A stretch of 64,000 bases of DNA. It comes from Candidatus Niyogibacteria bacterium. GTDB taxonomy: Bacteria; Patescibacteriota; Minisyncoccia; HO2-45-28. This document shows, piece by piece, positions 31,652-46,776 of the stretch (position 1 is the first letter of the stretch; each line of letters begins with the position of its first letter). A program made the translations under genes and the position numbers. The stretch covers positions 63,961-127,960 of the forward strand of contig JACOYI010000002.1 in assembly GCA_016181935.1 (NCBI GenBank), in the 5' to 3' direction. The notes under the pieces were generated by a model. That model was given only the letters and a program-made list of their open reading frames with translations, did no database searches and was not told the origin of the DNA.

Positions 31652-31884
31652 GCTTCTTTTTATGTATTAGTTCAATAAATAAGTTGTAGTAAGTGTGTGT
31701 GAATAAGGGGATAAACAGAATTTTTCGAAATATATTCAAAAATTTTACACCCTAGTTTTTGTGTTTTATGTGGATATTGTTTGGATGAAAACAAGCGCGG
31801 AAAAAATTTTTTCCAAAATCCCATTGTTATCATCAGTAAATCCACAATGTTTTACACCCGATATCCCGTCCGTTATCTGTCCGG
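31652..31884. promoter_or_regulatory. Candidate oriC segment (AT-rich dnaA-dnaN intergenic region with DnaA-box-like 9-mers)
   Basis: TGTGGATAT at 31769-31777 and AAATCCACA at 31838-31846 are near-consensus TTATCCACA boxes. The region is AT-rich and sits in a conserved origin gene context. Confidence 0.4.
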
Positions 31885-33246
31885 TCAGGATTTATCGTCT
31901 TCATAAAGGTGTGACCGAATGGTTTTCATTTCCTCCCGAAGCCGCTCATCTTTTTTCAAATCATTCGAAATTTTCAAATATGCATGGATGGCGGTTGTAT
32001 GGTCGCGGCCGCCGAATTTCTGGCCGATATAGGGATATGAGCCGCTGAAATCCTCCCGAAGCAGATACATGGCGATCTGCCGCGGACGCACAACTTCTTT
32101 GCGCCGCGTTTTTTCGAACAAAAACCGCTCCGGAACATCATAGAATTGGGCGACCGATTTGATGATGTGCTGAGCGGAAAGGGATTTTCGGGGTTTTGTG
32201 TTTTTGGAGAGGATCTCCTTGACTTCTTCCGCGGAGAGCGGGCGGCGGCGTATCTTGGAGTTGGCGACGATCGTATTGAGCGCCCCCTCCAGTTCCCGGA
32301 TATTGGTTTGAATGACCGACGCGATGTACTCCAAAATATCGGCTGCCGGCCGATATTCCTCCTTTCCGGCCGTTTTCGCTTGTAAGATCGCAAGTCGTGT
32401 TTCGTAATCCGGCTCCACAACATCCGCCATCATCCCCCCTTCAAAACGGGAGCGAAGGCGGTCGTCCAGATTAATGATGGATTTTGGCGCCCGATCGGAT
32501 GAAAAAACGATCTGTTTCGAGGCCTCCGACATCGCGTTGAAAATATGGAACATTTCCTCTTGGGAGGCGGTCCGGTTCGCGATGAATTGAACGTCGTCCA
32601 AGATCAGGAGATCGAATGAGCGGTATTTTTCTTTGATCGCCTCTTTTTCAGATGGCGTTCGAATGGCGAACATAATGTCGTTCGCGAAACGTTCCGTGCT
32701 TACATAATAGACCCGCTTTGCAGGAAAAAGAGCGCGCGTTTGATTGCCGATCGATTGCAATAAATGGGTTTTTCCAAGCCCAACCCCCCCATAGATATAG
32801 AGAGGGTTATAGGCGAGCCCGGGTTTTTCGGTAACCGCAAGAGCGGCCGCATGCGCGATCTCATTGAAGCGCCCGACAATGAACGTATCGAATGTGTATC
32901 GAGGATTGAGGTTGGTGTCTTTGTCCACATATAGCTCACGGAAATCCATCTGCTCTTCGTGCGGCTTCGGCGGCGGCGTTTTTGAGGGCGGGAGCATGGA
33001 TTGGGAGAGGATCGAGAATTCGATCGAGCGCACTTCCGGCGCGTGCGTTCGCAGATGCTTCAAAACAAGTTTTAGATATTTATTTTCAAGCCACTCTTTG
33101 ACGAACGCGGACGGCGTTCCAACCATGATCTTGCCGTTCAACTGATCCAAGATCGCGGTTTGTGCGAACCACGTTGCAAAATTTGCGGGCGAAAGCTCGA
33201 TTTCGATGTCGTGGAGAGTTAGTTTCCAAAGCTCTTCATTGGTCAT
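31885..33246 (-). CDS. dnaA: Chromosomal replication initiator DnaA
   Basis: AAA+ Walker A GGVGLGKTHLLQ, DnaA signature and a C-terminal HTH domain. The start was chosen at MTNEELWKL; the ORF could extend to 33291. Confidence 0.9.
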   Translation of the reverse strand: MTNEELWKLTLHDIEIELSPANFATWFAQTAILDQLNGKIMVGTPSAFVKEWLENKYLKLVLKHLRTHAPEVRSIEFSILSQSMLPPSKTPPPKPHEEQMDFRELYVDKDTNLNPRYTFDTFIVGRFNEIAHAAALAVTEKPGLAYNPLYIYGGVGLGKTHLLQSIGNQTRALFPAKRVYYVSTERFANDIMFAIRTPSEKEAIKEKYRSFDLLILDDVQFIANRTASQEEMFHIFNAMSEASKQIVFSSDRAPKSIINLDDRLRSRFEGGMMADVVEPDYETRLAILQAKTAGKEEYRPAADILEYIASVIQTNIRELEGALNTIVANSKIRRRPLSAEEVKEILSKNTKPRKSLSAQHIIKSVAQFYDVPERFLFEKTRRKEVVRPRQIAMYLLREDFSGSYPYIGQKFGGRDHTTAIHAYLKISNDLKKDERLREEMKTIRSHLYEDDKS

Positions 33247-33384
33247 AGCGAGTTTATTATAAATTTTCCGTGTTCTGTTCCGAAATCGCAAAATCCCAAT
33301 TAAACCTTACTATATATGTTAATAACGTGTGGATACGGTGGAAAGATTGTGCAGTGCCCGAGCGTGTTGTAGAATGAAAAAACC

Positions 33385-33522
33385 ATGCCGAAACGAACCT
33401 ATCAGCCTAAAAACCGAAAACGTTCCCGTGTCCACGGTTTTCTTAAACGGACCCGGGTTGCGGGCGGACGGGCCATTCTTCTTCGCCGCCGCCGCAAAGG
33501 ACGCGCCCGTCTGACCGTTTGA
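33385..33522 (+). CDS. rpmH: 50S ribosomal protein L34
   Basis: [45 protein letters not shown]. It was missed by the ORF track because it is under 60 aa. Confidence 0.9.
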
Positions 33523-33526
33523 AAGC

Positions 33527-33865
33527 GTGGCGCTTTCCCGAATTCATCGGTTAAAGGACAGGACGCGCATCGGGCGCGTTCTTCGCTTCGGACGGCGCGC
33601 CTCTATTGCCGGTATGCGGATCTCGATGGCGAAATCCCCCGACATACATTCGCATCTTGCCATTACTGTCCCTAAAACGATCGACAAGCGTTCGACTGTC
33701 CGAAACGCGCTGCGCCGCCGCGCGGCCGAAATCCTGCGTCCGATACTTCCCCGCCTCTCGCCACCCGCCGATATTGTGATAACGTTGTCTCCCGGCGCGA
33801 AAGCGCTCGATTCTCGAGAATTTAAACAAAAACTCGAATCCTTGGTTTATGGCCGGAATTTTTAA
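33527..33865 (+). CDS. rnpA: Ribonuclease P protein component
   Basis: 112 aa basic protein in the conserved rpmH-rnpA-yidC context (…RLKDRTRIGRVLRFGRRA…). Confidence 0.8.
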   Translation: MALSRIHRLKDRTRIGRVLRFGRRASIAGMRISMAKSPDIHSHLAITVPKTIDKRSTVRNALRRRAAEILRPILPRLSPPADIVITLSPGAKALDSREFKQKLESLVYGRNF

Positions 33866-34628
33866 CGAAGTTTTTTATCGTCCCCTTCTGAACGCGCTGG
33901 TTGTGCTGACCGGAGTATTACCGTTCCATGATCTGGGGCTCGCGGTGATCCTTTTGACGATACTCGTCCGGTTCCTTATGTTCCCGTTCAGTCATCGCCC
34001 TATGGTCGCCCAGCATAAGATGAAGATGATCGAGCCCGAACTGCAGAAGATCCGCGAGCGGGTCAAGGAACGCGAAGCGCAGGCAAAAGAGACCATGGCG
34101 CTCTATAAACGCCATGGTATCAACCCGTTCGCCGGGATCGTTTCTGTTATTTTTCAAATCCCCTTATTCCTTGCGTTATACTGGGTTTTTTCAAAAAGCG
34201 GAGCGATCGATCCCCAGTCGCTCTATTCTTTTGTGGCGCTACCGGACGGGATCCATACGGAATTTTTAGGGATCTTCGAACTGACGGAGCGGAGCATTGT
34301 TTGGGCGGCGTTCGCCGGCCTTTCGCAGTTCATTCATATGAAACTGACGAACCACCCCACGAGCGCTACGGGAGCAAAAAGCGATTTTGGAAAAGCGTTC
34401 TCATTTCAGATGACGTATGGGATGCCGTTCATCATTTTTTTCGTTTCCTTGTCGTTTCCGGCCGCGGTGAGCGTCTATTGGACAGTAAGCAATATTTTTA
34501 GTACAGTGCACGAAGGATTTGTGCGGCGCAAACTCCGCACCCAAAACGCACATGAAGCCCGAGATCGAGAAAATCCGTCAAACGATCAAAACCCTGCTGG
34601 AACGGCTGGGATGCCCGGCGTCCATTGA
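33849..34628 (+). CDS. yidC: Membrane protein insertase YidC (short form)
   Basis: Five-TM Oxa1 core (…ILLTILVRFLMFPF…QKIRE…). It overlaps both rnpA and jag. Confidence 0.85.
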   Translation: MAGIFNEVFYRPLLNALVVLTGVLPFHDLGLAVILLTILVRFLMFPFSHRPMVAQHKMKMIEPELQKIRERVKEREAQAKETMALYKRHGINPFAGIVSVIFQIPLFLALYWVFSKSGAIDPQSLYSFVALPDGIHTEFLGIFELTERSIVWAAFAGLSQFIHMKLTNHPTSATGAKSDFGKAFSFQMTYGMPFIIFFVSLSFPAAVSVYWTVSNIFSTVHEGFVRRKLRTQNAHEARDRENPSNDQNPAGTAGMPGVH

Positions 34629-35232: not shown

Positions 35233-36411
35233 CTATTCCGTGAGCGCGTAACTCCACAGCGAGTGGTTTTCCTTTTCCATAAAATAAAGAAAAGCGTCGT
35301 CGTCGGAGATCTCGAGTTTTTCAATATCAAAGAACCGGCCGACGGGGAGAATGACGTTCTCCCTTGTTTTCGTATTGATCTTCCATATAAGATCGCGCAA
35401 CTCGATCACCCCTTGCAGCCATTCGTCGGGATAGATCCCGCGCGGCGGATTTGAGTCGTTCGCGCAATAAATGATATCGGCATCGCGTCGCGAAAATGCG
35501 CATTGCGAGGCCATAGCGGCAACGGACAGGTTTTGCGGCGTTCCCGTTTCCGGCGCGAAGAAAAGCTCGGGTTTGCGGTTTTGTTCGTTGTATGAAGAGT
35601 AGACGAATGAACGGCCGGCAGGCGAAAGTTTGATCTCGAGCCCCAAAACGCCGCCCAAACGCTTTATGAGCGCGCCGGTTCGCGTGTTATAGGCAAAGTA
35701 AAATCCTTCCGCGACCCCCGAAGGCCGGTTTACGAGCGCGAATGTGTCGTTTGTGGGCCACAACAGCGCAAAATCCTGAAAGGCGAAGTTCGCGATACGG
35801 CGCTGACCCGTGTTGTCGGCTTTTGCGGTTATGAGGTCGGCTCCATCGCCCGACGGCAGGAGATAAGCGAACTCGGCGCCCGCCGGAGAGAACGCGCTAT
35901 CCAATAGGAGCGACGAGAGTGGGATCGCTTGGGTCGAGCTTGCGGAAAAGGTTGCCGCAACCACGCGCAGCGCGTCGCCCTCGAAGTATTTAAGGATGGC
36001 GCGCGCGGCGCCCTGCGCCCACAACGCATCAAAAACTTTAGGGATCGTGGTATTGGAAATGCGCAATTTCGTTTCCCCCTGCGGACTCACATCGAATACA
36101 TGGCCGGTTTGGCGCTCGATATAGCGAACGCCCGTAGTGCCGGTGATACCGAACCCTGCGACCGCCTCTGCGGACAAAAGCGTAAGCGCCATGCGTGGTA
36201 CTCCTTCCGTTGGTGGAGCCGAGATTCCTCCTTCGGTTGGTGTTACCTCCTCGCCGCCAAGACCGAAGATGTTGAACGGGAATCGGCGCACAATGCCCCG
36301 TTCCGGTTCCGGAATTTCCGCGGGCAGAGGACGAAAAACAAGCCAAAATGCGCCTCCGGCGATCATGAGGATGAAAAAGATGATAAGTCCGAGCGCGAGT
36401 GGTTTATTCAT
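35233..36411 (-). CDS. Hypothetical secreted/membrane-anchored protein (possible beta-propeller, TolB-like)
   Basis: N-terminal TM (LALGLIIFFILMIAGGAFWLV). The C-terminal region is repetitive and beta-rich. It is the last gene of the T4SS-like operon. Confidence 0.4.
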   Translation of the reverse strand: MNKPLALGLIIFFILMIAGGAFWLVFRPLPAEIPEPERGIVRRFPFNIFGLGGEEVTPTEGGISAPPTEGVPRMALTLLSAEAVAGFGITGTTGVRYIERQTGHVFDVSPQGETKLRISNTTIPKVFDALWAQGAARAILKYFEGDALRVVAATFSASSTQAIPLSSLLLDSAFSPAGAEFAYLLPSGDGADLITAKADNTGQRRIANFAFQDFALLWPTNDTFALVNRPSGVAEGFYFAYNTRTGALIKRLGGVLGLEIKLSPAGRSFVYSSYNEQNRKPELFFAPETGTPQNLSVAAMASQCAFSRRDADIIYCANDSNPPRGIYPDEWLQGVIELRDLIWKINTKTRENVILPVGRFFDIEKLEISDDDAFLYFMEKENHSLWSYALTE

Positions 36412-36424
36412 TGATTATTTGTTT

Positions 36425-37072
36425 CTATTTCGGTAATCCGCAACAGCGAAATCCCACCGGTGGTATTGAAGAGCAAGCCCCGGGCGCCGACACCCACCCA
36501 CCGCCGATGCTTTCGCAGGTTTGGGTGCTGGGAACGGCATTCGTTTGTTGATAATTCCCAGGCGGGCTGGTTTCAGCGCATAGGCCCGGCGTTGGAAGGT
36601 CTGGGCTTCCGCAGTAGGAATTACACTCACTTTCTGTTGCAAAGCTTCTTTCCTCCCCCGTAGGGCACACCCATGTTGTTGTGTCTATTCCCAGCGGTTG
36701 CGGCGGGCGCAACGATACGAGTTCCGGATTAATGGTGTTGAGAATAAGGAACGAAAGAAACGCAAGGATCAATCCGCCGACCGCCGCGGTGATGCGCTTT
36801 TTTGCAGCCTCCACTTGCGGAGGAGAAATGGCTCCGGTCATCCATTGAAAGCCCGCAATAACAATGACAAATACGGAAAGCAGGGTCGCGGCCGCAAGCA
36901 TTAAACGGAAAAGCCACGGCAGAAATTCGATAAAATTATCAAATTGGGGAGCTGGGGGTTGGGCGATCTGGGTGATCGGTTGCGCCTGAACAATGGCGGT
37001 CAAGAGCGAAAAAATGCCCATGGCGGCAAGGATCGTAATAGCGATAAAACAGCGATTATTGAACCGCAACAT
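36425..37072 (-). CDS. Putative T4SS pilin-like protein (VirB2/TrbC-like topology) with a Cys-rich C-terminal extension
   Basis: Signal peptide (…AIVQAQP) followed by two hydrophobic helices, as in TrbC/VirB2 pilins. A ~90-aa tail holds 9 Cys (…CPTGEE…CNSYCGSPD…CAETS…CESIGG…CSSIPPVGFRCCGLPK). Confidence 0.4.
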   Translation of the reverse strand: MLRFNNRCFIAITILAAMGIFSLLTAIVQAQPITQIAQPPAPQFDNFIEFLPWLFRLMLAAATLLSVFVIVIAGFQWMTGAISPPQVEAAKKRITAAVGGLILAFLSFLILNTINPELVSLRPPQPLGIDTTTWVCPTGEERSFATESECNSYCGSPDLPTPGLCAETSPPGNYQQTNAVPSTQTCESIGGGWVSAPGACSSIPPVGFRCCGLPK

Positions 37073-38069
37073 AAAATGATGTTTGGATCTGCTGCAAAAT
37101 ATTCACCGTATTTTGGATTTCGGCGCGGACAGAAACCGTTCCTACTGTTCCCCCCCCGCTTTTCAAACGTAACACCCCGCCCGGAGCCGCTGCAGCCGCT
37201 TGCCCGTCCACAGACCACGAGAAATTCAGCGATTCGCGGTTGTTGAATGTTGAGAAGAAAAAAGGAACTGCGCGGAATTCTTTGTCGTCATTCCGATTCA
37301 TGGAGAACGGCCGCGCCGTGCTTAATGCGCGCGCCGCGCGCACCCCTTCGAGCGGGCGCTCTTCATAAAAAAGGACTTTCGGCGATTCGACGTCAATAAA
37401 AGATGTCTTTGCCGCTGTTATGCTGTTTGATGGAGTTGAGACCTCAACCGCCACTTCATGCACGATCGTGCTGGCCTCTCCCGCTTGGAACGCAAATGTC
37501 TGTCTGCCTGCGCCCGAAAGCGCCTTATTGAATTTTCCGTCGAGCGTCCACTCGTAGATAAGCTGGGAGGCGGGAATTTCCCGACCTCCGCTTACGAGAT
37601 GCGGAATGGCGCTCACGATAACACGGGAGCGCGGGGACGCCAAACGCTTTCCTGCGTACCACGGGGGCGCGGTGGTTTGGGCGCGCCAAAGAAGGTCAAT
37701 ATCGCCGATACGGAACGACAGAGAGGCCTCGCGCGTTTTGCCGTCGGGCGCCGTTGCGACCGCGCGAAGGGCCTCTTCCGAGCCAGTGCCGCGCGCGGAG
37801 AATGTATAGGTGCGGAGCCCTGCGCCGTCCGCGACGCGCTGCCCGTTCCGGAACCACTGGATGCGCGCGCTTTGCAGGTCAACGGAAAAGCCGGTGAGCG
37901 TAGCGGTTACGGATTGGTTGGGGCCCGGGTGCTCGGGGAATAGGTTGATCGTGAGCGTGTTGAATCCGGTTTGCTGGGGAAGCGCCAATTGCGCGTGCGC
38001 TGATGCGGCGGCCAACCAGAGACCGGCCATGATCACGACAGCATACAAAATAAATGGAAGACGGTTCAT
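37056..38069 (-). CDS. Hypothetical secreted protein
   Basis: Signal peptide (…LWLAAASAHAQ). 337 aa with no recognizable domain. Start and stop overlap the neighbouring genes. Confidence 0.4.
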   Translation of the reverse strand: MNRLPFILYAVVIMAGLWLAAASAHAQLALPQQTGFNTLTINLFPEHPGPNQSVTATLTGFSVDLQSARIQWFRNGQRVADGAGLRTYTFSARGTGSEEALRAVATAPDGKTREASLSFRIGDIDLLWRAQTTAPPWYAGKRLASPRSRVIVSAIPHLVSGGREIPASQLIYEWTLDGKFNKALSGAGRQTFAFQAGEASTIVHEVAVEVSTPSNSITAAKTSFIDVESPKVLFYEERPLEGVRAARALSTARPFSMNRNDDKEFRAVPFFFSTFNNRESLNFSWSVDGQAAAAAPGGVLRLKSGGGTVGTVSVRAEIQNTVNILQQIQTSFYVAVQ

Positions 38070-38482
38070 GATTTGCGGTTATCGTGAATGATCCAGAGAA
38101 CCATCAGCGTATAGGTGGGGATAAGATCGCCGAAGGGAATGATCTCTATAGCGCCCGTAAGACCCCAGAACGGCGGTCGGCGCAATCCTTGGGAATAGAC
38201 CCAAAGCAGGATGATCCCCCACGTGGCGCCATCCAGAATGTCGCCGACAACGGGAATGGAGCCGATAATAAAATAGTCCAGCGTATCGTTGATCATGGCG
38301 ACCGCGAGCACGAGGTTAGCGATGAACATGTTCATACTTACTTGGCGCGCGGGAGCGGTCTCGTCGCCGGCGTCTTCCGGTCCTTCTTCGGCCTCTTCTT
38401 CATTTGCGAGCTTCGCTTGCCGCGCTTGGGCAAGCTCGAAGGCGCGCATCTCTTCGTCGATCGCTATCGTTCCGTTTGGCAT
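38066..38482 (-). CDS. Hypothetical membrane protein
   Basis: 138 aa with an acidic N-terminus and 3 predicted TM helices. Overlapping stop/start junctions tie it into the operon. Confidence 0.4.
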   Translation of the reverse strand: MPNGTIAIDEEMRAFELAQARQAKLANEEEAEEGPEDAGDETAPARQVSMNMFIANLVLAVAMINDTLDYFIIGSIPVVGDILDGATWGIILLWVYSQGLRRPPFWGLTGAIEIIPFGDLIPTYTLMVLWIIHDNRKS

Positions 38483-38485
38483 GGT

Positions 38486-40306
38486 TTAAGGATTGGTCGC
38501 CGCATATTCTTCTTTTGCCTGCTTGATCGCCGCAAGCTGGCTCGGGTCGGATGTGATGATCTGGTCTTCGGTATACGAACCGATGATCTTGATGGCCACG
38601 TGTTTAAGGCCGGCAAAAAACAACCCCTCTCCCACATCGGATTCCAAGATCAGGAATTTTTCCTCGTCCGTCAGATTGAATGTTTTTTGCACCTCATCAA
38701 TGGTCGCGGGCGACTGTTTGAGCAGGAGTTGGATCGAGGAATTCGTGATGATGGGAATGCCGTAGGGTGATTTCAAAAAATCGCCGACGTCCTGCGTGAT
38801 GGTGCAGACACCCAAGAAATATTTGCGCGCGCGCTTTGCGATGCCAAAAAGGAATGACGCCCCGTCTTCGCGCTTCATGATCCACCATGCCTCGTCGATC
38901 ACCAACAGGCGTTTTTTGATCTCTTTGCGGATCGCCGCCCAGATGTAATTGATGATGAGATACATCGCGACGGGCCGCAGTTCGTCCTCCATGTCGCGCA
39001 CCGAGAATACGATGAATTTTTTATTGATATCCACGTTGGTCGGCTGGTTGATGAATCCGGCCCACGTGCCCGACGTGTATTTATGAAGCCGTCCCGCGAG
39101 CGATTCCCCGCCCTCCATGTTGGCGAGCACCAATTCCAGATCCGAAAGGATGGGCGGTATCTTGCCCGTAAAATCCGTATTCGGCGTGATGTCACGCGAT
39201 GCGTACGTTTCGGTAATGGCGCGGTCCAGAACCGCATCTTCTTCGGGTGTAAGGCCGCCCAACATGATGCGGAAGAGCCCCACCAGATTGATGATGGTGG
39301 AACGAAGCACGTCCGTCGGGTCTTCGTCCTCGCGCGGAACCGGAAGTTCGAACGGGTTGATGTGGTGCGGGGAATTCAACGAGATATTGAAATAGCGGCC
39401 GTCCACGGCTTCCGCCAAGTGTTCATATTCGCGCTCAGGATCAATGACGATGACCTCGGTGTCGAACATCAAACTTCGCAAAATTTCGAGCTTGGTCGTG
39501 TAACTTTTACCCGAACCGCTTTTCGCAAAGATCACCGAATTGTAGTTTTCGAGCGAGAATCTGTCGAACAGGACCAAGCTGTTATTATGGCGGTTGACGC
39601 CGTAGAGAATTCCTTTATTGGACGTGAGATCGAATGAAACGAACGGGAAAATAGAAGAAACCGGTGAGGAATTCAGGCGGTTGGTGACTCCCAAACGATC
39701 CCTGCCCAGCGGGAACACCGTTAAGAGCCCTTCGGATTGCTGAAAAAGCGCGGGTTTTGCATACACGAGTTTGGATTGGAGCATGGAACGGATCTCAGAT
39801 TCCTCGCGGTCGAGTTCTTCGATCGAATCCGAATAAATCGTGATGTAAAAACCGAACGAAAAAAGCCGTTCTTGCGCCTGTTGGAGTTTGTCGCGCAAGT
39901 CCTCCAGATTTTGATAGGCGGCGTCGAGCATCGGGTCGCGGACCAGCCCTTTTTCCTCGCGGTCATGGATCTGCGACTGGACCTCCGCCACCTTCTTTTG
40001 GAGCTGACGCAGGACGGTTGCCGTATCGATCGGGTGGATATAGAGCGAGATATCGAATACCTTATCGAGATTGATGACGGGACTGAACCAATTGATGGAT
40101 AAGAATCGCGGGTAGGAAAAAACAAAAAGCGTTCGCGCGACTTTTTCGCCGAGTTTGACGTGATTGGCCGTGATCTCAAGCGCGGAGGGCGCGATCACGT
40201 CTTTTAATTCAAGGCGCGCGGCCTCGTAAATTTGTTCGGGCTGGATGGAGATGATCTCCTCCTCCGTTCCCGTTTTTTTCTTTTTAAATAGATCGTGTAA
40301 TGCCAT
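38486..40306 (-). CDS. virB4: VirB4/TrbE/CagE-family type IV secretion ATPase (ATPase body)
   Basis: Walker A VIFAKSGSGKSYTTK, Walker B LLVIDEAWWIM and a DUF87/AAA-like fold. The start was chosen at MALHDLFKKKK so that the upstream ORF ends just before it. Confidence 0.8.
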   Translation of the reverse strand: MALHDLFKKKKTGTEEEIISIQPEQIYEAARLELKDVIAPSALEITANHVKLGEKVARTLFVFSYPRFLSINWFSPVINLDKVFDISLYIHPIDTATVLRQLQKKVAEVQSQIHDREEKGLVRDPMLDAAYQNLEDLRDKLQQAQERLFSFGFYITIYSDSIEELDREESEIRSMLQSKLVYAKPALFQQSEGLLTVFPLGRDRLGVTNRLNSSPVSSIFPFVSFDLTSNKGILYGVNRHNNSLVLFDRFSLENYNSVIFAKSGSGKSYTTKLEILRSLMFDTEVIVIDPEREYEHLAEAVDGRYFNISLNSPHHINPFELPVPREDEDPTDVLRSTIINLVGLFRIMLGGLTPEEDAVLDRAITETYASRDITPNTDFTGKIPPILSDLELVLANMEGGESLAGRLHKYTSGTWAGFINQPTNVDINKKFIVFSVRDMEDELRPVAMYLIINYIWAAIRKEIKKRLLVIDEAWWIMKREDGASFLFGIAKRARKYFLGVCTITQDVGDFLKSPYGIPIITNSSIQLLLKQSPATIDEVQKTFNLTDEEKFLILESDVGEGLFFAGLKHVAIKIIGSYTEDQIITSDPSQLAAIKQAKEEYAATNP

Positions 40307-40311
40307 AACGA

Positions 40312-40959
40312 CTATGTTCTCATTTGGGGCGCTCGCCCTTTTTCTAATTCTCCGGGATTGAAATAGCCGTAAAAAAGTTCGACCAATTCCTCGGTATTCA
40401 ACGGCACTGTGCGTACGCCCGTGGACGCGAGCGCACCCGAAACCGTCTCGACTCTCTGCCATAGCTGGGAGCGGTATTCCTCGAATTTTGCATCATCAAA
40501 GCGCTTGGCGTCCGCCGGTTTCCCCCCGAACATTCCGCGCACCCCCTTTCCGATCTCGATCGCCGGCGGCGCGAACGAGACCACGATATAGAAATTTTTC
40601 GTGACGATCTTGGTGGTTTGGACGAATGTGCGGACGAACTCGATATATTCGCGCGTCTGGATCTTTAAGAGATCATTCGACTGCGCCCGCTCGGCTTCGC
40701 GGAGAGTTTCAAGGTAGGGCTCGATGTTCAAGTGGCGCGATTGGATGATGATCTCGACCGAAAAATCAAGCGCGTTCAAAAAGTTCTGGTATTGCGCCGT
40801 GATCGCCTCCTGTTCGTCGGCCGAACGCAGGCCAAAATTGAGCGCAGAGGCCATCAGCACCATGTGCATGTGATGATCGTCCGTGATCATCACGCCGTCG
40901 CGGATCTCGCGAATCGGGACGAATTCCTGCGCCGCTTTTCCTTTGGTGGGATTGGGCAT
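40312..40959 (-). CDS. VirB4 N-terminal-domain-like protein (split VirB4?)
   Basis: EFVPIREIRDGVMITDDHHMHMVLMASALNFGLRSADEQEAITAQYQNFLNAL resembles the N-termini of Gram-positive conjugative VirB4 homologs. Summed with the ATPase ORF the length is about 820 aa. Confidence 0.45.
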   Translation of the reverse strand: MPNPTKGKAAQEFVPIREIRDGVMITDDHHMHMVLMASALNFGLRSADEQEAITAQYQNFLNALDFSVEIIIQSRHLNIEPYLETLREAERAQSNDLLKIQTREYIEFVRTFVQTTKIVTKNFYIVVSFAPPAIEIGKGVRGMFGGKPADAKRFDDAKFEEYRSQLWQRVETVSGALASTGVRTVPLNTEELVELFYGYFNPGELEKGRAPQMRT

Positions 40960-40962
40960 ACC

Positions 40963-41367
40963 CTATTTTACCTTTTCTTTAACATCCAAACTCCATGCCA
41001 GGTCTTTTAATTTGCCTCTCGTAACCTTGGGAACTTCAAGCTTTGGACCTTCGGTCTTCGCGCCCGCCGGTTTCTCCGATTCCGTCTCGCCTCTTTTCCA
41101 AATGTAGAGCCGAGAGCCGAGGTAATAAGAGATCGCATTGCCAACGACTTTGATGAAGGGTTGGTTGTTTATCTTGTAAAAGGCAAGCGCCAATGCGAAT
41201 CCCGCGACCGGAAGTCCGAACAAAATGACGAGAAAAAACGGGAGAAAAACATACAAAATGAATACGGACGCGGCACCCCCCAGCAGATACACGAACTGCT
41301 TGAGCGTAAGCGGCCCGAAAATTTTATCCTCGACATCAATGAATTGGGGAACGTCGAATTGTCTCAT
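40963..41367 (-). CDS. PrgI/VirB3-like small membrane protein
   Basis: MRQFDVPQFIDVEDKIFGPLTLKQFVYLLGG followed by 2 TM helices. This is the PrgI-family pattern and the gene sits immediately upstream of VirB4. Confidence 0.5.
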   Translation of the reverse strand: MRQFDVPQFIDVEDKIFGPLTLKQFVYLLGGAASVFILYVFLPFFLVILFGLPVAGFALALAFYKINNQPFIKVVGNAISYYLGSRLYIWKRGETESEKPAGAKTEGPKLEVPKVTRGKLKDLAWSLDVKEKVK

Positions 41368-41927
41368 GAAATAGGTTCGCGATATGGATCCTTATTGCCC
41401 GGATAGGTTTTTTGCTCGCGCGCTTCGGATAATTCTTTTTGGGCGGAAAACACTTTTTCCTGAAGTTTGGACTCGAAGGGTGATGGCATTGGCGCGGGTG
41501 CCGGTTGTCCCAAAGGGTAGTCCTTAGGAGCGCTCAAAGGACTACCCTTTGGGAGTTCTGCGGCTGGCGGTCTGCTGACCGGCGGAGGCACGGGAATCAC
41601 GTGATCTTCTTCCATTGTGTGGACGCGGCGCAAAGAAGCGCGGATTTTTGAGAAAATGCGAACGTTTAAATCCTCGGTAATACCTTTGGAGATTTCCTCG
41701 GAAACACCGAGATTGCGCTGAAGTTTTCCAATAAAATGTTCCGGCTTAGTAAAACCGAGCATGAAATAACCGGTTTCATCCGCAAGAACCCCAATTTTAT
41801 CAACCGCGAGCCGATGTTTTTTCCCGATCATCCGAATTGCTTCCGCGGTATCCATACTGAAAATGGCATCCTTTAATTCTTGCGGAAGCCGTTGGAAGCG
41901 CTGTTGGATTTCTGTTGGCGTTGGCAT
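41364..41927 (-). CDS. Hypothetical protein (Pro-rich C-terminal half)
   Basis: 187 aa within the operon and overlapping its neighbours. No recognizable domain. Confidence 0.4.
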   Translation of the reverse strand: MPTPTEIQQRFQRLPQELKDAIFSMDTAEAIRMIGKKHRLAVDKIGVLADETGYFMLGFTKPEHFIGKLQRNLGVSEEISKGITEDLNVRIFSKIRASLRRVHTMEEDHVIPVPPPVSRPPAAELPKGSPLSAPKDYPLGQPAPAPMPSPFESKLQEKVFSAQKELSEAREQKTYPGNKDPYREPIS

Positions 41928-41945
41928 GGTTATTTCATTATATCG

Positions 41946-44309
41946 CTATATGGCAGGTCCGCGGGGCGGAATGCGCGTGTACGGCCCCGCAATCTCAATG
42001 GTCGGTTTCTCGAGGGGCTGCTGTGACTCGGTCGAAATGCCGGCCTCTTTTAATTCATCGCGGTAGGCGCCGCCGCGAACGCTGGCCGCAAGCGCTGGAT
42101 TTCCTGCCCTAGCAATGGAATCTGCCAGCTCATCCGTGGTTTTCCCGAGCGTTTTAAACGCCTCAATCATTTTTTCTGCCGCATCCCCTCCTTCCTCAAA
42201 AACACCTTTCACTGTTTTTCGGCTCAACTGTTTTACGACTTCTTCGGCGCGCGCCGGGTTTTTCATATCCGCGACAGTTGCCGAGCTGAAAACAGTTTGT
42301 TTTTCAATAGAGATGCCCGCCGCTTCCAAAATCGGCCGGCCGGCATTGCTGCGGAACCATCCGGCAAGCGTTGTATTGCCGACCTCTTCCAGCCCGTTCG
42401 CAACGTCATCCATGGTTGTTCCCATAGAGCGCAATCCCGCCGCTAATGCTTTAGCCGCATCTCCGCCCTCGTTTATGATATCTACAAGGAGTTTCGGGCT
42501 GGTAACGCCCCTAAAGACCTCCTGCGCGTAGGCTTTGTTTTTCAAGTCTTCCGCCGTCGCGTATTGGAATTCGAGCGCATCTGCGTCTTTTGTGCTGATG
42601 CCGTAATCGCGCATGTATCTCTTGTTTTGTTCGATGGCGCTGCGTGTGAACCCAATGCTTTCATCGAGTTTCAAATCTCTTCGTTTAGCAAGAATGTCCA
42701 TGATAGCCGCTTTTGTGGCGGGATCGAATGACGAGCGAAGCATATCTTTTAATTCATCTGTCGAGCGCTTGTTCAATTTTTCTTCCCGATCCAGAACAGC
42801 TTTTTTGTGTTCATTAAGGACCACATTTGCGCCGCGCTGGACAAGGCCCCCGCCGAGCCATTTTGCTGCGGGCTTGCGAAGTTGTCGCGCGAGCCACGGG
42901 GCCTCGATTTTTTGCCCGCCGAACATCTTTTCCTTGCCAACCGCCTTTTCCGCGAGTAGGCTACTCCCCGCAAGCGTCACGCGGCGCAACCCGTGCCGCC
43001 ACGCAACTCCGGGGGCTGCGCGCGTATATCCGCGCAGGCGCCCGATCGCTTTATCTGCGATGGAAGCGGACACCCCGCCCATTTTTTTGGCAAATCCTAG
43101 GGCAAAGAGGAGCATCATCACGAGCAGGATGTAATACATGACGAGCTGGAAATTCGAAATGAAGGATTTGTTCACGGAAGGATCAGCTCCCATGGTAAGT
43201 CGAACAAAGGGGTTCGCGATCATATTGACGGTGATGGAGAAGAAAAAGAAAAACCCAACGGGCCAGAGCGCGTTCGATACGAGTTTTGAGAGCCATTCGC
43301 GCGCATAGCTCTGGAGCGCGGGCAGGGTCCAGAAGAAAAAGGCGATGGGAGAGGCGATCATCAAAAACCAGAGCATGACAATGCGGACAAGAAGCATGAT
43401 GGCGACCGTAAAGAGAACAAAGGTGGCGACCGCAAGAAAAATAATAACGCCGATCATGGAGACGATGACTTGGGTGAATAGGCCTTCGGCGCCCTTCTCG
43501 AGACCTTGTTGTTGGGCAAGGAGTTGATTTTCCACGCCTTTTAAAGTTTCCAAATAGCCTTGTTGTTCTGGGGTAAGATCTCCTCCAAATGCATGCGTTC
43601 CCGTTGTTTTCCCGATTTCCTCTTGAACCGCTTTTAGGCTCGCATTTACCGCCGCCAATGAATCCGCATTGTTGTTTTCAAACGACGCAAAAAGGATATT
43701 CGGATTGACGCCCGTCACGAATTTTGCGGAAAAGGACGGCGTTGTCGCGCCCGTTCCGATCCCCGGCACAAAAAGCCGCGCGAAAAGATTCGATGATATG
43801 ATGATGTATTGCGTGAGCGCAAAGGAAAAATTAATGAAAAGCGCAACGATGATGAGACGGGCGAGCAGCCGTTTTGCGCCGTATGCTTCGAATTGGAGAA
43901 TGGTCGCGATGGCAATGACCAAAAGAACGAAAATGAAAAAAAGATTGACGGTATCGCGCGCGACAACCCACCCGGCATAGATTGCCGGCACTTGATACAT
44001 ATCGGGATTGAGCGTGAAAGCAATGACCGTATCAATAAGATTGCCGGCCAAGATAAAAAGCTGACTGACGGCCTGAAGAACGAAATAAACGAGCCACGCG
44101 AGCCACGATCCGACGCAGATGCCAAAAATATTCTCGCAGTGCGTGATCTGCGTGATGATGTTCGTGGCATCCGAGCGCGTTCCCTGCGCCAGGGCGTCGG
44201 ATAGCGGCAATAACACAAATATGCCGAGCGCGAGCACGAACACCGCTATATACAGAAACGACAATCGGAGCGGAAAAAGCTTTTTCATGAATATTAGAGC
44301 GCCTGACAT
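41946..44309 (-). CDS. VirB6/TrbL-like polytopic membrane protein with a C-terminal repeat domain
   Basis: About 400 aa of multi-TM region, then a ~350-aa hydrophilic tail with reiterated motifs (EGGDAAKA…, EAAGISIEKQ, KEAGISTESQ, DYGISTKDAD). Confidence 0.5.
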   Translation of the reverse strand: MSGALIFMKKLFPLRLSFLYIAVFVLALGIFVLLPLSDALAQGTRSDATNIITQITHCENIFGICVGSWLAWLVYFVLQAVSQLFILAGNLIDTVIAFTLNPDMYQVPAIYAGWVVARDTVNLFFIFVLLVIAIATILQFEAYGAKRLLARLIIVALFINFSFALTQYIIISSNLFARLFVPGIGTGATTPSFSAKFVTGVNPNILFASFENNNADSLAAVNASLKAVQEEIGKTTGTHAFGGDLTPEQQGYLETLKGVENQLLAQQQGLEKGAEGLFTQVIVSMIGVIIFLAVATFVLFTVAIMLLVRIVMLWFLMIASPIAFFFWTLPALQSYAREWLSKLVSNALWPVGFFFFFSITVNMIANPFVRLTMGADPSVNKSFISNFQLVMYYILLVMMLLFALGFAKKMGGVSASIADKAIGRLRGYTRAAPGVAWRHGLRRVTLAGSSLLAEKAVGKEKMFGGQKIEAPWLARQLRKPAAKWLGGGLVQRGANVVLNEHKKAVLDREEKLNKRSTDELKDMLRSSFDPATKAAIMDILAKRRDLKLDESIGFTRSAIEQNKRYMRDYGISTKDADALEFQYATAEDLKNKAYAQEVFRGVTSPKLLVDIINEGGDAAKALAAGLRSMGTTMDDVANGLEEVGNTTLAGWFRSNAGRPILEAAGISIEKQTVFSSATVADMKNPARAEEVVKQLSRKTVKGVFEEGGDAAEKMIEAFKTLGKTTDELADSIARAGNPALAASVRGGAYRDELKEAGISTESQQPLEKPTIEIAGPYTRIPPRGPAI

Positions 44310-45805
44310 GCGGTAATGGATGCGTTGTAATCCGCAAGCGCCGCCTGTAGCGCTGTCGTTGCATTTTCGGCCTCGGCAAGCGCGTCTTCGCCGATCGAGC
44401 TCGCGATGGTCGTTGCGGTTTCGGCTTCAAGTTCATCCATATTGCTCAACTTGCTTTCCGTAAGGATCCGGCTTTGAAGCACGGTCAGAGCTTGCGTACG
44501 CGTTCGCGAGCGCTGAATATCAGCGACAACAATTTGCAATTGCGCCGTGTAGGTATCGGTATCCGTTTGGAGGTCTTGACCGCTACAGGCCTCGAGCGTC
44601 TCGATCTGCGTAAGGATCGTTTGAATGGTGTTGAGAGAGGTTTGCTTTTCGTTCCTGTAGTCATTTTCACGCGCCAGCACCGGATTGAGATCTGCGAGCA
44701 GAGTCGTGCGGCGCGCCTGTAATTCTTGGAAATTCGCCTGCTCTTCTTCAAAGCTCGGGGAATCGCTCAATCCCTCGATCAGCGGCTTTACGATCAATTG
44801 GCCGACCAAGGCGGATATAATGGCGTTGATGGATTCTGCGAGATACAGCTCATTCATTTGCGCCTGCGTATTCGCGTTAAACATACCGACAATGGCGGCG
44901 CCCGGCGTTTTGTTTTCGTATTTCGCGCAACCGAATTCCTCGCTACGCTCATAAATAGGGATTTGATTGAACGGATTATTGGGGTCGGGTTCCATGCCGA
45001 CGCGTCCCTTGTTGTATTCAACGCACTCTTTGAACGCGAAGAATCCTTGGCTTGCCTGTGCTTCGTCACGATTTGCTTCAAATGTCGAAAGCGCCTGCGC
45101 ATGGAGTTGGTCCCAACGTACAAGAAAACTTCCGAATGCGTTATTGTTCACGTTCGCCGTAATGGTGATAAAAGACGCCCATCCGCCGGTAAGGAAGTTT
45201 TGATACATTTCGGTTACGTTTTCGACGATATCGGAAATCGTACAGCGCGGCCGCGGCACGCGGAATTCAAAAAGGTTGAGAATGATTTCGATCCGGAATG
45301 GACTGCAAACGGCATCCAATTGATCCGGCGTGAGCAAGCTTTCCAAAAAATAGCCGGAGGCGGTGTCAGCCGCATTCAGGGCGGATGTTCGGAAATCCTG
45401 AACAAACAGCGGTCCGCCTTCCGGAAATCCTGAATTGATCCAATTCACAATGTCGCCGGTCATCTCGACAATAATTGCGCGAAGGATGCTTTTGCCAAGA
45501 ACCTCAAAAATGTCCTTTCTCGCGCATTCTTCCCAGTCGAAAAGGTTGTAAACACAAATCGCGAGCAACGCTCCGATCGCTGCGCCCGCGAATTCCTCGG
45601 GATGTTCGGCTATCGCGTCTGCGGCTTCATTGGCGATGGCGAAGGCAATATCCGGACTTCCGCCAAAAGGACTCATAATAGTGATAAGATCGCCGAGTCC
45701 GCCATCCCCGAGCTGCGCATAAGCGGTTTTTGGCGCAAAAGCGCTCGGGATGAGCCCCACGAGCATTGTGATCAAGAGAAGGGCGGCAATAAATTTTCGC
45801 GTCAT
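44294..45805 (-). CDS. Hypothetical secreted protein with a C-terminal coiled coil
   Basis: Signal peptide (…LIPSAFAPKTAYAQ). 503 aa; the C-terminal 150 aa are coiled-coil-like. Second gene of the operon. Confidence 0.4.
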   Translation of the reverse strand: MTRKFIAALLLITMLVGLIPSAFAPKTAYAQLGDGGLGDLITIMSPFGGSPDIAFAIANEAADAIAEHPEEFAGAAIGALLAICVYNLFDWEECARKDIFEVLGKSILRAIIVEMTGDIVNWINSGFPEGGPLFVQDFRTSALNAADTASGYFLESLLTPDQLDAVCSPFRIEIILNLFEFRVPRPRCTISDIVENVTEMYQNFLTGGWASFITITANVNNNAFGSFLVRWDQLHAQALSTFEANRDEAQASQGFFAFKECVEYNKGRVGMEPDPNNPFNQIPIYERSEEFGCAKYENKTPGAAIVGMFNANTQAQMNELYLAESINAIISALVGQLIVKPLIEGLSDSPSFEEEQANFQELQARRTTLLADLNPVLARENDYRNEKQTSLNTIQTILTQIETLEACSGQDLQTDTDTYTAQLQIVVADIQRSRTRTQALTVLQSRILTESKLSNMDELEAETATTIASSIGEDALAEAENATTALQAALADYNASITACQAL

Positions 45806-46776
45806 GGCATTTTGGCGGGTTTTACAGTTTTTGCGATAAAGACATAGGCAGGATCGCCAGATGCAATGGAAATACGGTCGCGCTTCAATTGCGCCGAAAC
45901 ACTTTCAAGCGAATGTTGCAATTGCCGGGCAATTTGAACATGCGCTTCGATCAATGACGGTGCCGCAAAGAAATCATTGGGCAGGGTTTGAAAACCCGCA
46001 TTCGTTTCGGACAAACCCTCGAACGCATTGATGATGGTTAAATGCAGGTCGCGATAGTGCGCGGGAACCGGCGTTTTGAGGAGTTTTTGAGCCGCATTAG
46101 CATACGCATAGCGGTATGCCCCAAAAGCGGAAAAATATTTGACTGTATTTTCGCGGTCCGTGGCGTTTAGGAGTTGAATAAGCAGGGCCAGCTCATTCGA
46201 CTTAAAACCGCTAAAAAAAGATGTCAGAATTGCGCCAAGCTCATTCGCATATTTTTTTACCGCTTCCGAAGAGGCATCCGGAGAAATCACAATATCCGCG
46301 CCTGTCCGCTTGGTTTTTTGGGAAAAAGTCGTTGCGGTCGGAGGCGGCATGGAAACGCTTAAATACTTTCGAATTTCATCATCCGACCACCCCTGTTGCT
46401 TTAGCGTGACGACATTGGTTAAAAAATCCCGCGCGAATGCGTCGGAGGGAGAAAGAGCCGCCGCGCTGCTTTCGGTCAACGATCGGGAAACGGCCGTCGT
46501 ATCTTTTACAGCGCTCTTTTTGATCGCTTCGCCGTCCGGAATCCCGTCGCCATCCGTATCGGGATTATTCGGGTCGGTTTTCCAAAGAAGCTCTTCCCAG
46601 TCCTTCAGGCCGTCGCCATCGGAATCCGACGCTTGCTGACGGGCGGCGGCAGGTACCGCTGTGACAATAGCCGCGGTTTGCGGTGTGGATCTCGAGAGCG
46701 AGCGAACATACCAAATACCGCCTCCGACCACGAAGACGCTCACAATTCCCAAAAGGATGAACTTTGGGTTCCTCAC
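45802..46776 (-). CDS. Membrane-anchored protein with calcium-binding-like Asp-rich repeats
   Basis: N-terminal TM helix, then DSDGDGLKDWEE and DTDGDGIPDGE (thrombospondin type 3 / EF-like motifs). First gene of the operon. Confidence 0.45.
   Translation of the reverse strand: MRNPKFILLGIVSVFVVGGGIWYVRSLSRSTPQTAAIVTAVPAAARQQASDSDGDGLKDWEELLWKTDPNNPDTDGDGIPDGEAIKKSAVKDTTAVSRSLTESSAAALSPSDAFARDFLTNVVTLKQQGWSDDEIRKYLSVSMPPPTATTFSQKTKRTGADIVISPDASSEAVKKYANELGAILTSFFSGFKSNELALLIQLLNATDRENTVKYFSAFGAYRYAYANAAQKLLKTPVPAHYRDLHLTIINAFEGLSETNAGFQTLPNDFFAAPSLIEAHVQIARQLQHSLESVSAQLKRDRISIASGDPAYVFIAKTVKPAKMP

What the first reader, a model, noticed from the sequence alone, without database searches (positions are those of the whole stretch)
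38486..40959. VirB4 appears split into a separate N-terminal-domain protein and an ATPase-body protein
The 215-aa ORF (40312..40959) carries an N-terminal pattern typical of conjugative VirB4 N-termini (…VPIREIRDGVMITDD…NFGLRSADEQEAI…). The adjacent 607-aa ORF carries the Walker A/B ATPase. Together they total about 820 aa, the usual single-chain VirB4 length. Either this is a natural split or a frameshift or assembly error joins them.
Basis: partly seen in the sequence, partly recalled or inferred. Interest (0 to 1): 0.55.

Follow-up and report, generated by a model that had tools for sequence, protein, structure and literature searches.

The report
Naturally split VirB4: TrsD plus ATPase
The type IV secretion motor VirB4 really is encoded here as two adjacent genes, but this split is ancient, conserved across Patescibacteria and some Gram-positive plasmids (TrsD + TrsE), and already published, so it is an ordinary member of a known arrangement and not an error.

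Summary
On the minus strand a 215-aa ORF (40312-40959) ends in TAG. Five bases later, in another frame, a 606-aa ORF (38486-40306) starts with its own ATG. The 606-aa protein is a VirB4-family ATPase that lacks the first ~170 positions of single-chain relatives. The 215-aa protein matches exactly those missing N-terminal positions. The two map colinearly, without overlap, onto single-chain VirB4-like models and onto two fused relatives.

It is not a frameshift or assembly error. In 79 of 79 species-representative Patescibacteria genomes holding both genes, the same two genes are separate. The first has its own stop codon, the second its own ATG, and the pair occurs in all three relative frames. 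The 120 closest homologues of each protein are stand-alone (214-238 aa and 586-643 aa).

The same breakpoint occurs in Staphylococcus pSK41 TrsD/TrsE. The window comes from a Candidatus Niyogibacteria MAG. The genes sit in a PrgI-TrsD-VirB4 operon with VirB6-like and pilin-like genes, close to dnaA.

A 2025 paper (PMC12102498) already reports TrsD, a remote homologue of the VirB4 N-terminus, as the most abundant T4SS component next to virB4 in Patescibacteria. The verdict is real, natural and already known. How TrsD works is inferred, not shown.

The parts
40312..40959 (-). TrsD-family protein (215 aa), equivalent to the first ~170-215 residues of single-chain VirB4 (first half of the N-terminal domain)
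   Evidence: NCBIfam N-terminal hits to VirB4_plasma, conju_CD1110 and TrsD/TraD. Weak Pfam TraC_F_IV hit at positions 15-178/375. Precomputed PF26593 'TraC-like'. AF2 model with pLDDT 88 whose top 14 PDB fold hits are all TrwK/VirB4. Profile match to pSK41 TrsD, E 1.4e-5.
40307..40311 (-). 5-nt spacer between the TAG stop of the trsD-like gene (40314-40312) and the ATG of virB4 (40306-40304); the frames differ
   Evidence: Sequence read directly. In relatives the spacer ranges from -14 to +496 nt (median 5) and all three relative frames occur.
38486..40306 (-). Short VirB4-family ATPase (606 aa): second half of the N-terminal domain (res ~1-228) plus the P-loop C-terminal domain
   Evidence: conju_CD1110 374 bits (cutoff 325) at model positions 173-732/752. 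PDB 4AG5 VirB4 C-terminal domain, E 1.7e-42, res 229-585. Pfam P-loop_TraG, AAA_10 and DUF87. Aligns from residue 1 with pSK41 TrsE.
39503..39517 (-). Walker A (GSGKS, res 264-268)
38885..38908 (-). Walker B region (LLVIDEAW, res 467-474)
40963..41367 (-). PrgI-family (VirB3-like) membrane protein, 134 aa, 3 nt upstream of the trsD-like gene
   Evidence: Pfam PrgI E 2.5e-10, above the gathering score. The same PrgI-then-TrsD-like-then-VirB4 order occurs in a Geobacillus plasmid; in pSK41 an unnamed 135-aa ORF holds the position upstream of trsD.
41946..44309 (-). VirB6/TrbL-like polytopic membrane protein (787 aa) with a long C-terminal extension
   Evidence: Pfam TrbL 28.9 bits, above the gathering score of 25.9.
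36425..37072 (-). VirB2/T4SS-pilin-like protein (215 aa); sub-threshold hits only
   Evidence: Pfam T4SS_pilin E 5.6e-4 and TrbC E 2.2e-3, both below the gathering score.
35233..45805 (-). Ten-gene minus-strand operon that contains the pair; gene spacings run from -17 to +18 nt
   Evidence: No promoter-like or terminator-like site on the minus strand at the junction.

Best explanation
This is a natural, anciently fixed two-gene form of the type IV secretion ATPase VirB4. The upstream gene encodes a TrsD-family protein that corresponds to the first half of the VirB4 N-terminal domain. The downstream gene encodes the rest: the second half of that domain plus the P-loop ATPase domain. Both lie in a tightly packed operon (PrgI/VirB3-like, TrsD-like, VirB4, with VirB6-like and pilin-like genes) beside the replication origin of a Candidatus Niyogibacteria chromosome. 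They are translated separately, each with its own start and stop. Inferred, not shown: the TrsD-like protein binds the short VirB4 in trans and rebuilds the membrane-proximal N-terminal domain. In the R388 structures that domain contacts VirB3 and the inner-membrane complex. TrsD would therefore dock the ATPase hexamer onto the PrgI/VirB6 platform of the Patescibacteria T4SS. That system lacks a relaxase and, in Saccharibacteria, is essential for epibiotic growth.
For: Complementary mapping. The 215-aa protein hits conju_CD1110 positions 2-121 and the 606-aa protein hits positions 173-732 of 752. The concatenated pair hits Pfam TraC_F_IV positions 15-373/375 above threshold, while each part alone is below it.

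Fused relatives. P0356 (797 aa, encoded after PrgI and near dnaA) aligns at res 2-214 with the small protein and res 230-796 with the large one. The Myxococcus plasmid 858-aa protein matches the TrsD profile at res 15-211 with probability 97%.

Conservation of the split. The 120 closest homologues of the small protein are 187-238 aa, all but one of them 214-238 aa, and those of the ATPase are 586-643 aa. Of the best 150 clusters at 50% identity, only one is fused. In 79/79 species genomes with both genes, the first ends in a stop (59 TAA, 12 TAG, 8 TGA) and the second has its own ATG. The median spacer is 5 nt, and relative frames 0/1/2 occur 15/35/29 times.

Fold. The AF2 model has pLDDT 88, and its top 14 PDB fold hits are all TrwK/VirB4 of R388.

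Same architecture and breakpoint in Firmicute plasmids. In pSK41, trsD (227 aa) precedes a 672-aa DUF87 ATPase (TrsE). The profile match to TrsD has E 1.4e-5, and the ATPases align from residue 1 to residue 1. Geobacillus and Halobacillus plasmids show the same arrangement.

Literature. PMC12102498 reports 2,272 TrsD homologues in Patescibacteria, 1,664 of them next to virB4. It describes TrsD as remotely homologous to the VirB4 N-terminus and as essential in S. epibionticum.
Against: [quoted passage not shown] The hit to the curated NCBIfam TrsD/TraD model is far below its cutoff (18.5 vs 200 bits). The profile match to pSK41 TrsD has only 80% probability. Fold matches to TrwK are specific but weak (E 2e-3 to 0.1, TM 0.34-0.49), and there is no sequence-level match to TrwK. 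An AF2 model of the fused relative, meant to show how the two parts pack, failed (pLDDT 56).
Confidence: 0.88

Rival explanations
1. A sequencing or assembly indel, or a recent pseudogenising frameshift, broke a single ~820-aa virB4 gene in this MAG.
For: The two ORFs are adjacent, in different frames and only 5 nt apart. The virB4 frame also stays open for 52 codons upstream of its ATG.
Against: 79/79 related species genomes from independent assemblies have the same two genes, with their own stops and starts, varying spacers and all three relative frames. All 120 closest homologues of each protein are stand-alone. Some TrsD-like homologues carry long C-terminal tails of their own. The same split exists in cultured Firmicute plasmids.
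Confidence: 0.01
2. Programmed ribosomal frameshifting or stop-codon readthrough at the junction makes a full-length fused VirB4 in addition to the two separate products.
For: In this window a -1 or +2 shift anywhere in the last ~50 codons of the trsD-like gene would run into the virB4 frame without meeting a stop.
Against: There is no canonical slippery heptamer at the 3' end of the gene (sequence). In relatives the virB4 frame is usually closed a few codons upstream of its ATG. The relative frame varies (15/35/29), and spacers reach 90-496 nt in 7 loci. No frameshift or readthrough signal is therefore conserved.
Confidence: 0.02
3. The TrsD-like protein is not a complementing piece of the motor. 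It is an independent accessory factor, such as a regulator, assembly chaperone or substrate receptor, that merely descends from a VirB4 N-terminal fragment, and the short VirB4 works without it.
For: TrsD evolves much faster than the ATPase: 55-60% versus 72-79% identity in the same genomes. Some homologues have long disordered tails. In Gracilibacteria, TrsD homologues are reported not to be adjacent to virB4. Its function is unassigned.
Against: The two proteins cover a single-chain VirB4 model without overlap, and the short VirB4 lacks that region. Natural fusions exist at exactly this junction. Adjacency and tight spacing are nearly universal. The TrsD homologue is listed as essential in S. 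epibionticum, like VirB4.
Confidence: 0.1

Closest known systems
TrsD + TrsE of Staphylococcus aureus pGO1/pSK41 (MPF-FATA, pGO1 subclass; TraD + TraE of pIP501 by family name)
   Same: The layout matches: a small ORF upstream (135 aa and unnamed in the pSK41 record, PrgI-family here), then a ~215-227-aa TrsD, then a ~600-670-aa VirB4-type ATPase. The CPR TrsD profile aligns end to end with pSK41 TrsD (11-205 vs 33-217 of 227, E 1.4e-5). The ATPases align from residue 1 to residue 1, so the breakpoint is the same.
   Different: Sequence similarity is remote: about 20% for TrsD and 24% for the ATPase. The window's system is chromosomal and next to dnaA, with no relaxase or coupling protein recognised among the genes scanned in the cluster. 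The staphylococcal system is a plasmid conjugation apparatus with a relaxase and VirD4.
Patescibacteria T4SS described by Quinonero-Coronel et al. 2025 (PMC12102498) and Wang et al. 2023 (PMC10633639)
   Same: The component set matches: VirB4, TrsD, PrgI/VirB3, VirB6 and a VirB2-like pilin. TrsD is adjacent to virB4 and the cluster lies near dnaA/dnaN. The window is from a Niyogibacteria MAG, which the source records place in the Patescibacteria/Parcubacteria group.
   Different: Nothing substantive; the window is one more instance. In the passages read, the paper does not spell out that the Patescibacteria VirB4 is correspondingly N-terminally short, or that the breakpoint equals that of TrsD/TrsE.
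Single-chain VirB4 ATPases (CD1110 family of Clostridioides CTn2, TraC of F, TrwK of R388)
   Same: The domain content matches when the two window proteins are summed (821 aa). They map colinearly to conju_CD1110 and Pfam TraC_F_IV. The C-terminal domain matches 4AG5 and TrwK, and the small protein's fold matches TrwK.
   Different: Here the chain is broken inside the N-terminal domain into two polypeptides. The TrsD profile has no detectable sequence similarity to TrwK.
VirB3-VirB4 fusions (e.g. in Campylobacter; the fusions themselves are cited in PMC12102498, the Campylobacter example is from my own knowledge)
   Same: This is another case where the boundaries between the VirB3 / VirB4 N-terminus / VirB4 body modules are redrawn by gene fusion or fission.
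   Different: The direction is opposite (fusion rather than fission) and the junction is different. No VirB3-VirB4 fusion was found in Patescibacteria.

Membership tests
VirB4-family T4SS ATPase, MPF-FATA / CD1110 type (606-aa protein) | Score above the curated cutoff of the family model | tested here: met
   NF045971 conju_CD1110: 374 bits against a cutoff of 325, E 1.5e-111.
VirB4-family T4SS ATPase, MPF-FATA / CD1110 type (606-aa protein) | P-loop C-terminal domain with Walker A and Walker B motifs | tested here: met
   GSGKS at res 264-268 and LLVIDEAW at res 467-474. 4AG5 VirB4 C-terminal domain, E 1.7e-42. Pfam P-loop_TraG, E 4.7e-29.
VirB4-family T4SS ATPase, MPF-FATA / CD1110 type (606-aa protein) | Complete N-terminal domain in the same polypeptide | tested here: not met
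   The match begins at model position 173 of 752 (conju_CD1110), 240 of 800 (TraC-F-type) and 264 of 792 (VirB4_CagE). The missing part is supplied by the upstream ORF.
VirB4-family T4SS ATPase, MPF-FATA / CD1110 type (606-aa protein) | Encoded with VirB3-like and VirB6-like partners | tested here: met
   PrgI at 40963-41367 and TrbL/VirB6 at 41946-44309, in the same operon.
TrsD/TraD family (215-aa protein) | Score above the curated cutoff of NCBIfam NF041427 | tested here: not met
   18.5 bits against a cutoff of 200, E 1.4e-3. The curated model is built on Firmicute plasmids, so this shows remoteness rather than exclusion from the wider family.
TrsD/TraD family (215-aa protein) | End-to-end homology to a prototype TrsD | tested here: inconclusive
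   hhalign of a 78-sequence profile against pSK41 TrsD gives probability 80%, E 1.4e-5, over 174 columns (11-205 vs 33-217 of 227). PMC12102498 detected these proteins with the MPF-FATA TrsD HMM.
TrsD/TraD family (215-aa protein) | Stand-alone ~200-230-aa protein encoded immediately upstream of a short VirB4 | tested here: met
TrsD/TraD family (215-aa protein) | Homology to the N-terminal portion of single-chain VirB4 | tested here: met
   VirB4_plasma positions 103-233/894, E 1.7e-7, and conju_CD1110 positions 2-121/752, E 1.5e-5. Fused relatives P0356 (res 2-214, E 2e-45) and Myxococcus (probability 97%). Top 14 fold hits are TrwK.
Frameshifted pseudogene or assembly artefact | Close relatives carry one continuous ORF across the junction | tested here: not met
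   79/79 related species genomes are split. Only 1 of the best 150 clusters at 50% identity is fused.
Programmed frameshift gene | Conserved relative frame and slippery site at the junction | tested here: not met
   Relative frames 0/1/2 occur 15/35/29 times, spacers range from -14 to +496 nt, and the upstream frame is usually closed.

The most novel reading that the evidence does not exclude
TrsD and the short VirB4 descend from one ancient fission inside the VirB4 N-terminal domain, shared between the pGO1/pSK41-type Firmicute plasmids and the whole Patescibacteria T4SS clade (same breakpoint), with occasional re-fusion (P0356). The freed N-terminal half has become a separately tunable docking or regulatory subunit: it evolves faster and sometimes carries long disordered tails. 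It would control when the ATPase hexamer engages the PrgI/VirB6 platform. The papers read here note only 'remote homology' and assign no function, so the explicit split-motor model and its consequences for assembly would be a modest new point.
Probability: 0.4. Interest if true: 0.35.

Novelty: already known. Interest (0 to 1): 0.15.

Why it matters
For annotation, the 215-aa 'hypothetical protein' should be named a TrsD-family VirB4 N-terminal-domain protein. The pair should not be flagged as a frameshifted pseudogene or merged into one gene.

For biology, the Patescibacteria T4SS is essential for epibiotic growth in the one cultivated system tested. TrsD is its most widespread component after VirB4, yet it has no assigned function. 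Recognising it as the detached first half of the VirB4 N-terminal domain gives a concrete, testable hypothesis for its role: docking the motor to VirB3/PrgI. This window adds no new kind of system.

Tried and rejected
- phmmer of the 215-aa protein against PDB sequences found nothing, even at E 10. Only the fold search found VirB4.
- The search for related loci with the diverse 78-sequence alignment failed because it had no conserved 7-10-column stretch. The call was repeated with a closer 18-sequence alignment.
- The AF2 model of the naturally fused relative P0356, built on an unpaired alignment, was too poor to show how the TrsD-like part packs on the body (pLDDT 56, pTM 0.47). It was not used.
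- hhalign of the TrsD profile against the TrwK sequence was not significant (probability 1.4%).
- Guglielmini et al. 2014 (PMC4027160) is cited by the 2025 paper for the TrsD / VirB4 N-terminus homology, but its main text as held does not contain the word TrsD. The attribution therefore rests on PMC12102498.
- The pELF (PMC13492992) and pNP40 (PMC8194271) papers were checked for functional data on TrsD/TraD. Their 'TraD' is a VirD4-like protein or is absent, so they are not relevant.
- The promoter/terminator scan gave counts at or below the shuffled expectation and nothing on the minus strand at the junction.
- Frameshift error and programmed frameshifting were considered and rejected on comparative grounds.
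Full report
**What is in the sequence**

On the minus strand, a 215-aa ORF (40312-40959) ends with TAG at 40314-40312. After five bases (TCGTT), an ATG at 40306 opens a 606-aa ORF that ends at 38486. The two are in different frames. The ORF listing reports a 658-aa frame from an upstream ATG at 40462. The quoted motifs are present in the small protein. Walker A (GSGKS, res 264-268) and Walker B (LLVIDEAW, res 467-474) are in the large one.

**Identity of the two proteins**

The 606-aa protein is a VirB4-family ATPase:
- Pfam P-loop_TraG, AAA_10 and DUF87.
- NCBIfam conju_CD1110, 374 bits against a curated cutoff of 325.
- Residues 229-585 match the crystal structure of the Thermoanaerobacter VirB4 C-terminal domain (4AG5, E 1.7e-42) and, more weakly, R388 TrwK.

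Its matches to single-chain VirB4 models all begin well inside those models: position 173/752 in conju_CD1110, 240/800 in TraC-F-type and 264/792 in VirB4_CagE. It therefore lacks the first ~170-260 model positions. It does keep about 228 residues ahead of the ATPase domain.

The 215-aa protein hits the missing N-terminal positions:
- conju_CD1110 positions 2-121.
- VirB4_plasma positions 103-233 of 894.
- Weakly, the curated TrsD/TraD model.

Alone, it scores 23.3 bits on Pfam TraC_F_IV (positions 15-178/375), below the gathering score of 28.1. The concatenation of the two proteins scores 31.9 bits as one colinear match over positions 15-373/375.

An AlphaFold2 model of the small protein built on 78 homologues is confident (pLDDT 88, pTM 0.78). 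Its top 14 Foldseek hits in the PDB are all TrwK/VirB4 chains of the R388 T4SS (probability 0.85-1.0). After those, probabilities fall below 0.25. The scores are modest (E 2e-3 to 0.1, TM 0.34-0.49), so this is supporting evidence only.

**Natural split or error**

- The window protein is 100% identical to a hypothetical protein of a Candidatus Niyogibacteria MAG.
- The 120 closest homologues of the small protein are 187-238 aa (all but one 214-238), and those of the ATPase are 586-643 aa.
- An exhaustive search of 1.84 billion cluster representatives found 2,048 related clusters. Among the best 150, all but one are stand-alone proteins.
- A scan of one genome per GTDB species returned 560 relatives, and I analysed the best 80 loci. 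These are labelled Niyogi-, Giovannoni-, Taylor-, Kaiser-, Campbell-, Ryan-, Vogel- and Tagabacteria and other Paceibacterota, with many records deposited as 'uncultured Candidatus Saccharibacteria'.
- In 79 of the 79 loci that hold both genes, the first gene ends in a stop (59 TAA, 12 TAG, 8 TGA) and the second starts with its own ATG.
- Spacers run from -14 to +496 nt (median 5). The relative frames 0, 1 and 2 occur 15, 35 and 29 times.

This pattern rules out an assembly indel or a recent pseudogene. It also rules out a conserved programmed frameshift or readthrough.

**Fused relatives show colinearity**

One representative, P0356 (797 aa), is a single chain. It is encoded right after a PrgI gene and near rnpA, yidC, dnaA and dnaN in another MAG. 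The window's small protein aligns to its residues 2-214 and the large one to residues 230-796. A Myxococcus plasmid encodes an 858-aa fused protein whose residues 15-211 match the TrsD-like profile with probability 97%. The two window proteins are therefore complementary halves, not paralogous duplicates.

**The known counterpart**

tblastn against plasmids found stand-alone homologues mostly in Bacillales.
- Geobacillus pGspE55-1 has PrgI, then a 318-aa hypothetical protein, then a 636-aa DUF87 ATPase.
- A Halobacillus plasmid has a gene annotated TrsD, then a 622-aa DUF87 ATPase.
- In Staphylococcus pSK41 the order is a small ORF, trsD (227 aa), then a 672-aa DUF87 ATPase, i.e. TrsE.

The Patescibacteria profile aligns end to end with pSK41 TrsD (E 1.4e-5, probability 80%). 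The window ATPase aligns with TrsE from residue 1 to residue 1 (E 3e-36). The breakpoint is therefore the same.

**Literature**

Quinonero-Coronel et al. [quoted passage not shown] They report 2,272 homologues, 1,664 of them associated with virB4. No function is assigned, and the homologue in Southlakia epibionticum is listed as essential. They also describe the PrgI, VirB6 and VirB2-like components and the location near dnaA. Wang et al. 2023 (PMC10633639) showed that this T4SS is essential for epibiotic growth and lacks recognisable relaxase and coupling proteins.

The window fits this description:
- The ten-gene operon (35233-45805, spacings -17 to +18 nt) contains PrgI, the TrsD-like protein, VirB4, a VirB6/TrbL protein and a weak pilin-like protein.
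- It lies about 0.6 kb from yidC (33849-34628), about 2 kb from dnaA (31885-33291) and about 3.6 kb from dnaN (30548-31651).

**Mechanism**

Shown: two separate genes, complementary to a single-chain VirB4, conserved and co-located with the gene for the VirB3-like partner.

Inferred: the TrsD-like protein associates in trans with the short VirB4 and completes its N-terminal domain. From established knowledge of the R388 structures (7O41, 8RTB; not tested here), that domain is the membrane-proximal part that contacts VirB3 and the inner-membrane complex. TrsD would thereby dock the ATPase onto PrgI/VirB6. I give the natural-split/TrsD identification about 0.9 and the docking-in-trans mechanism about 0.6.

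An alternative is that TrsD has drifted into a separate accessory or regulatory role. Three observations favour this. It evolves faster than the ATPase (55-60% versus 72-79% identity in the same genomes). Some homologues carry 200-aa low-complexity tails. In Gracilibacteria it is reportedly not adjacent to virB4.

**Verdict**

The feature is a typical member of an arrangement already described for Patescibacteria and for pGO1/pSK41-type plasmids. Interest is low. The useful residue is twofold:
- An annotation point: do not merge the pair or flag it as a pseudogene.
- A sharpened hypothesis for the unassigned function of TrsD.

Noticed in passing
window 30548-34628: dnaN (30548-31651, -), dnaA (31885-33291, -) and yidC (33849-34628, +) lie directly beside the T4SS operon. 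The cluster is therefore origin-proximal, as reported for many Patescibacteria.
   Followed up: partly
window 36425-37072 (-): The pilin-like 215-aa ORF has only sub-threshold T4SS_pilin/TrbC hits. It carries a C-terminal extension of about 90 residues rich in cysteines (…WVCPTGEERSFATESECNSYCG…FRCCGLPK), which is unusual for a VirB2-type pilin.
   Followed up: no
window 41946-44309 (-): The VirB6/TrbL-like protein is 787 aa. The TrbL match covers only res 206-402, and about 380 C-terminal residues have no family hit.
   Followed up: no
P0267, P0299, P0319, P0347 (homologues, not in the window): Some stand-alone TrsD-like proteins are 406-443 aa because of long Pro/Gln/Ala/Thr-rich low-complexity C-terminal tails. 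This shows that the small protein evolves as an independent polypeptide.
   Followed up: partly
L001 544-2937 (P0356): A rare naturally fused TrsD-VirB4 single chain (797 aa) occurs in another MAG, after PrgI and near dnaA. It is either a secondary re-fusion or a retained ancestral state.
   Followed up: partly
window 44294-46776 (-): Two ORFs lie upstream of VirB6. The 503-aa ORF has no family hit and overlaps VirB6 by 16 nt, so it probably belongs to the operon. The 324-aa ORF carries a bacterial thrombospondin-type-3 repeat.
   Followed up: no
window 40307-40462 (-): The virB4 reading frame stays open for 52 codons upstream of its ATG, overlapping the 3' end of the trsD-like gene. This produces a spurious 658-aa ORF call. 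It is not conserved in relatives and is compatible with chance.
   Followed up: yes
L013, L020, L029, L044, L063 (relatives): In five of the 79 related genomes the trsD-like gene and virB4 are separated by 189-496 nt instead of a few bases. I did not check whether a small ORF is inserted there.
   Followed up: no
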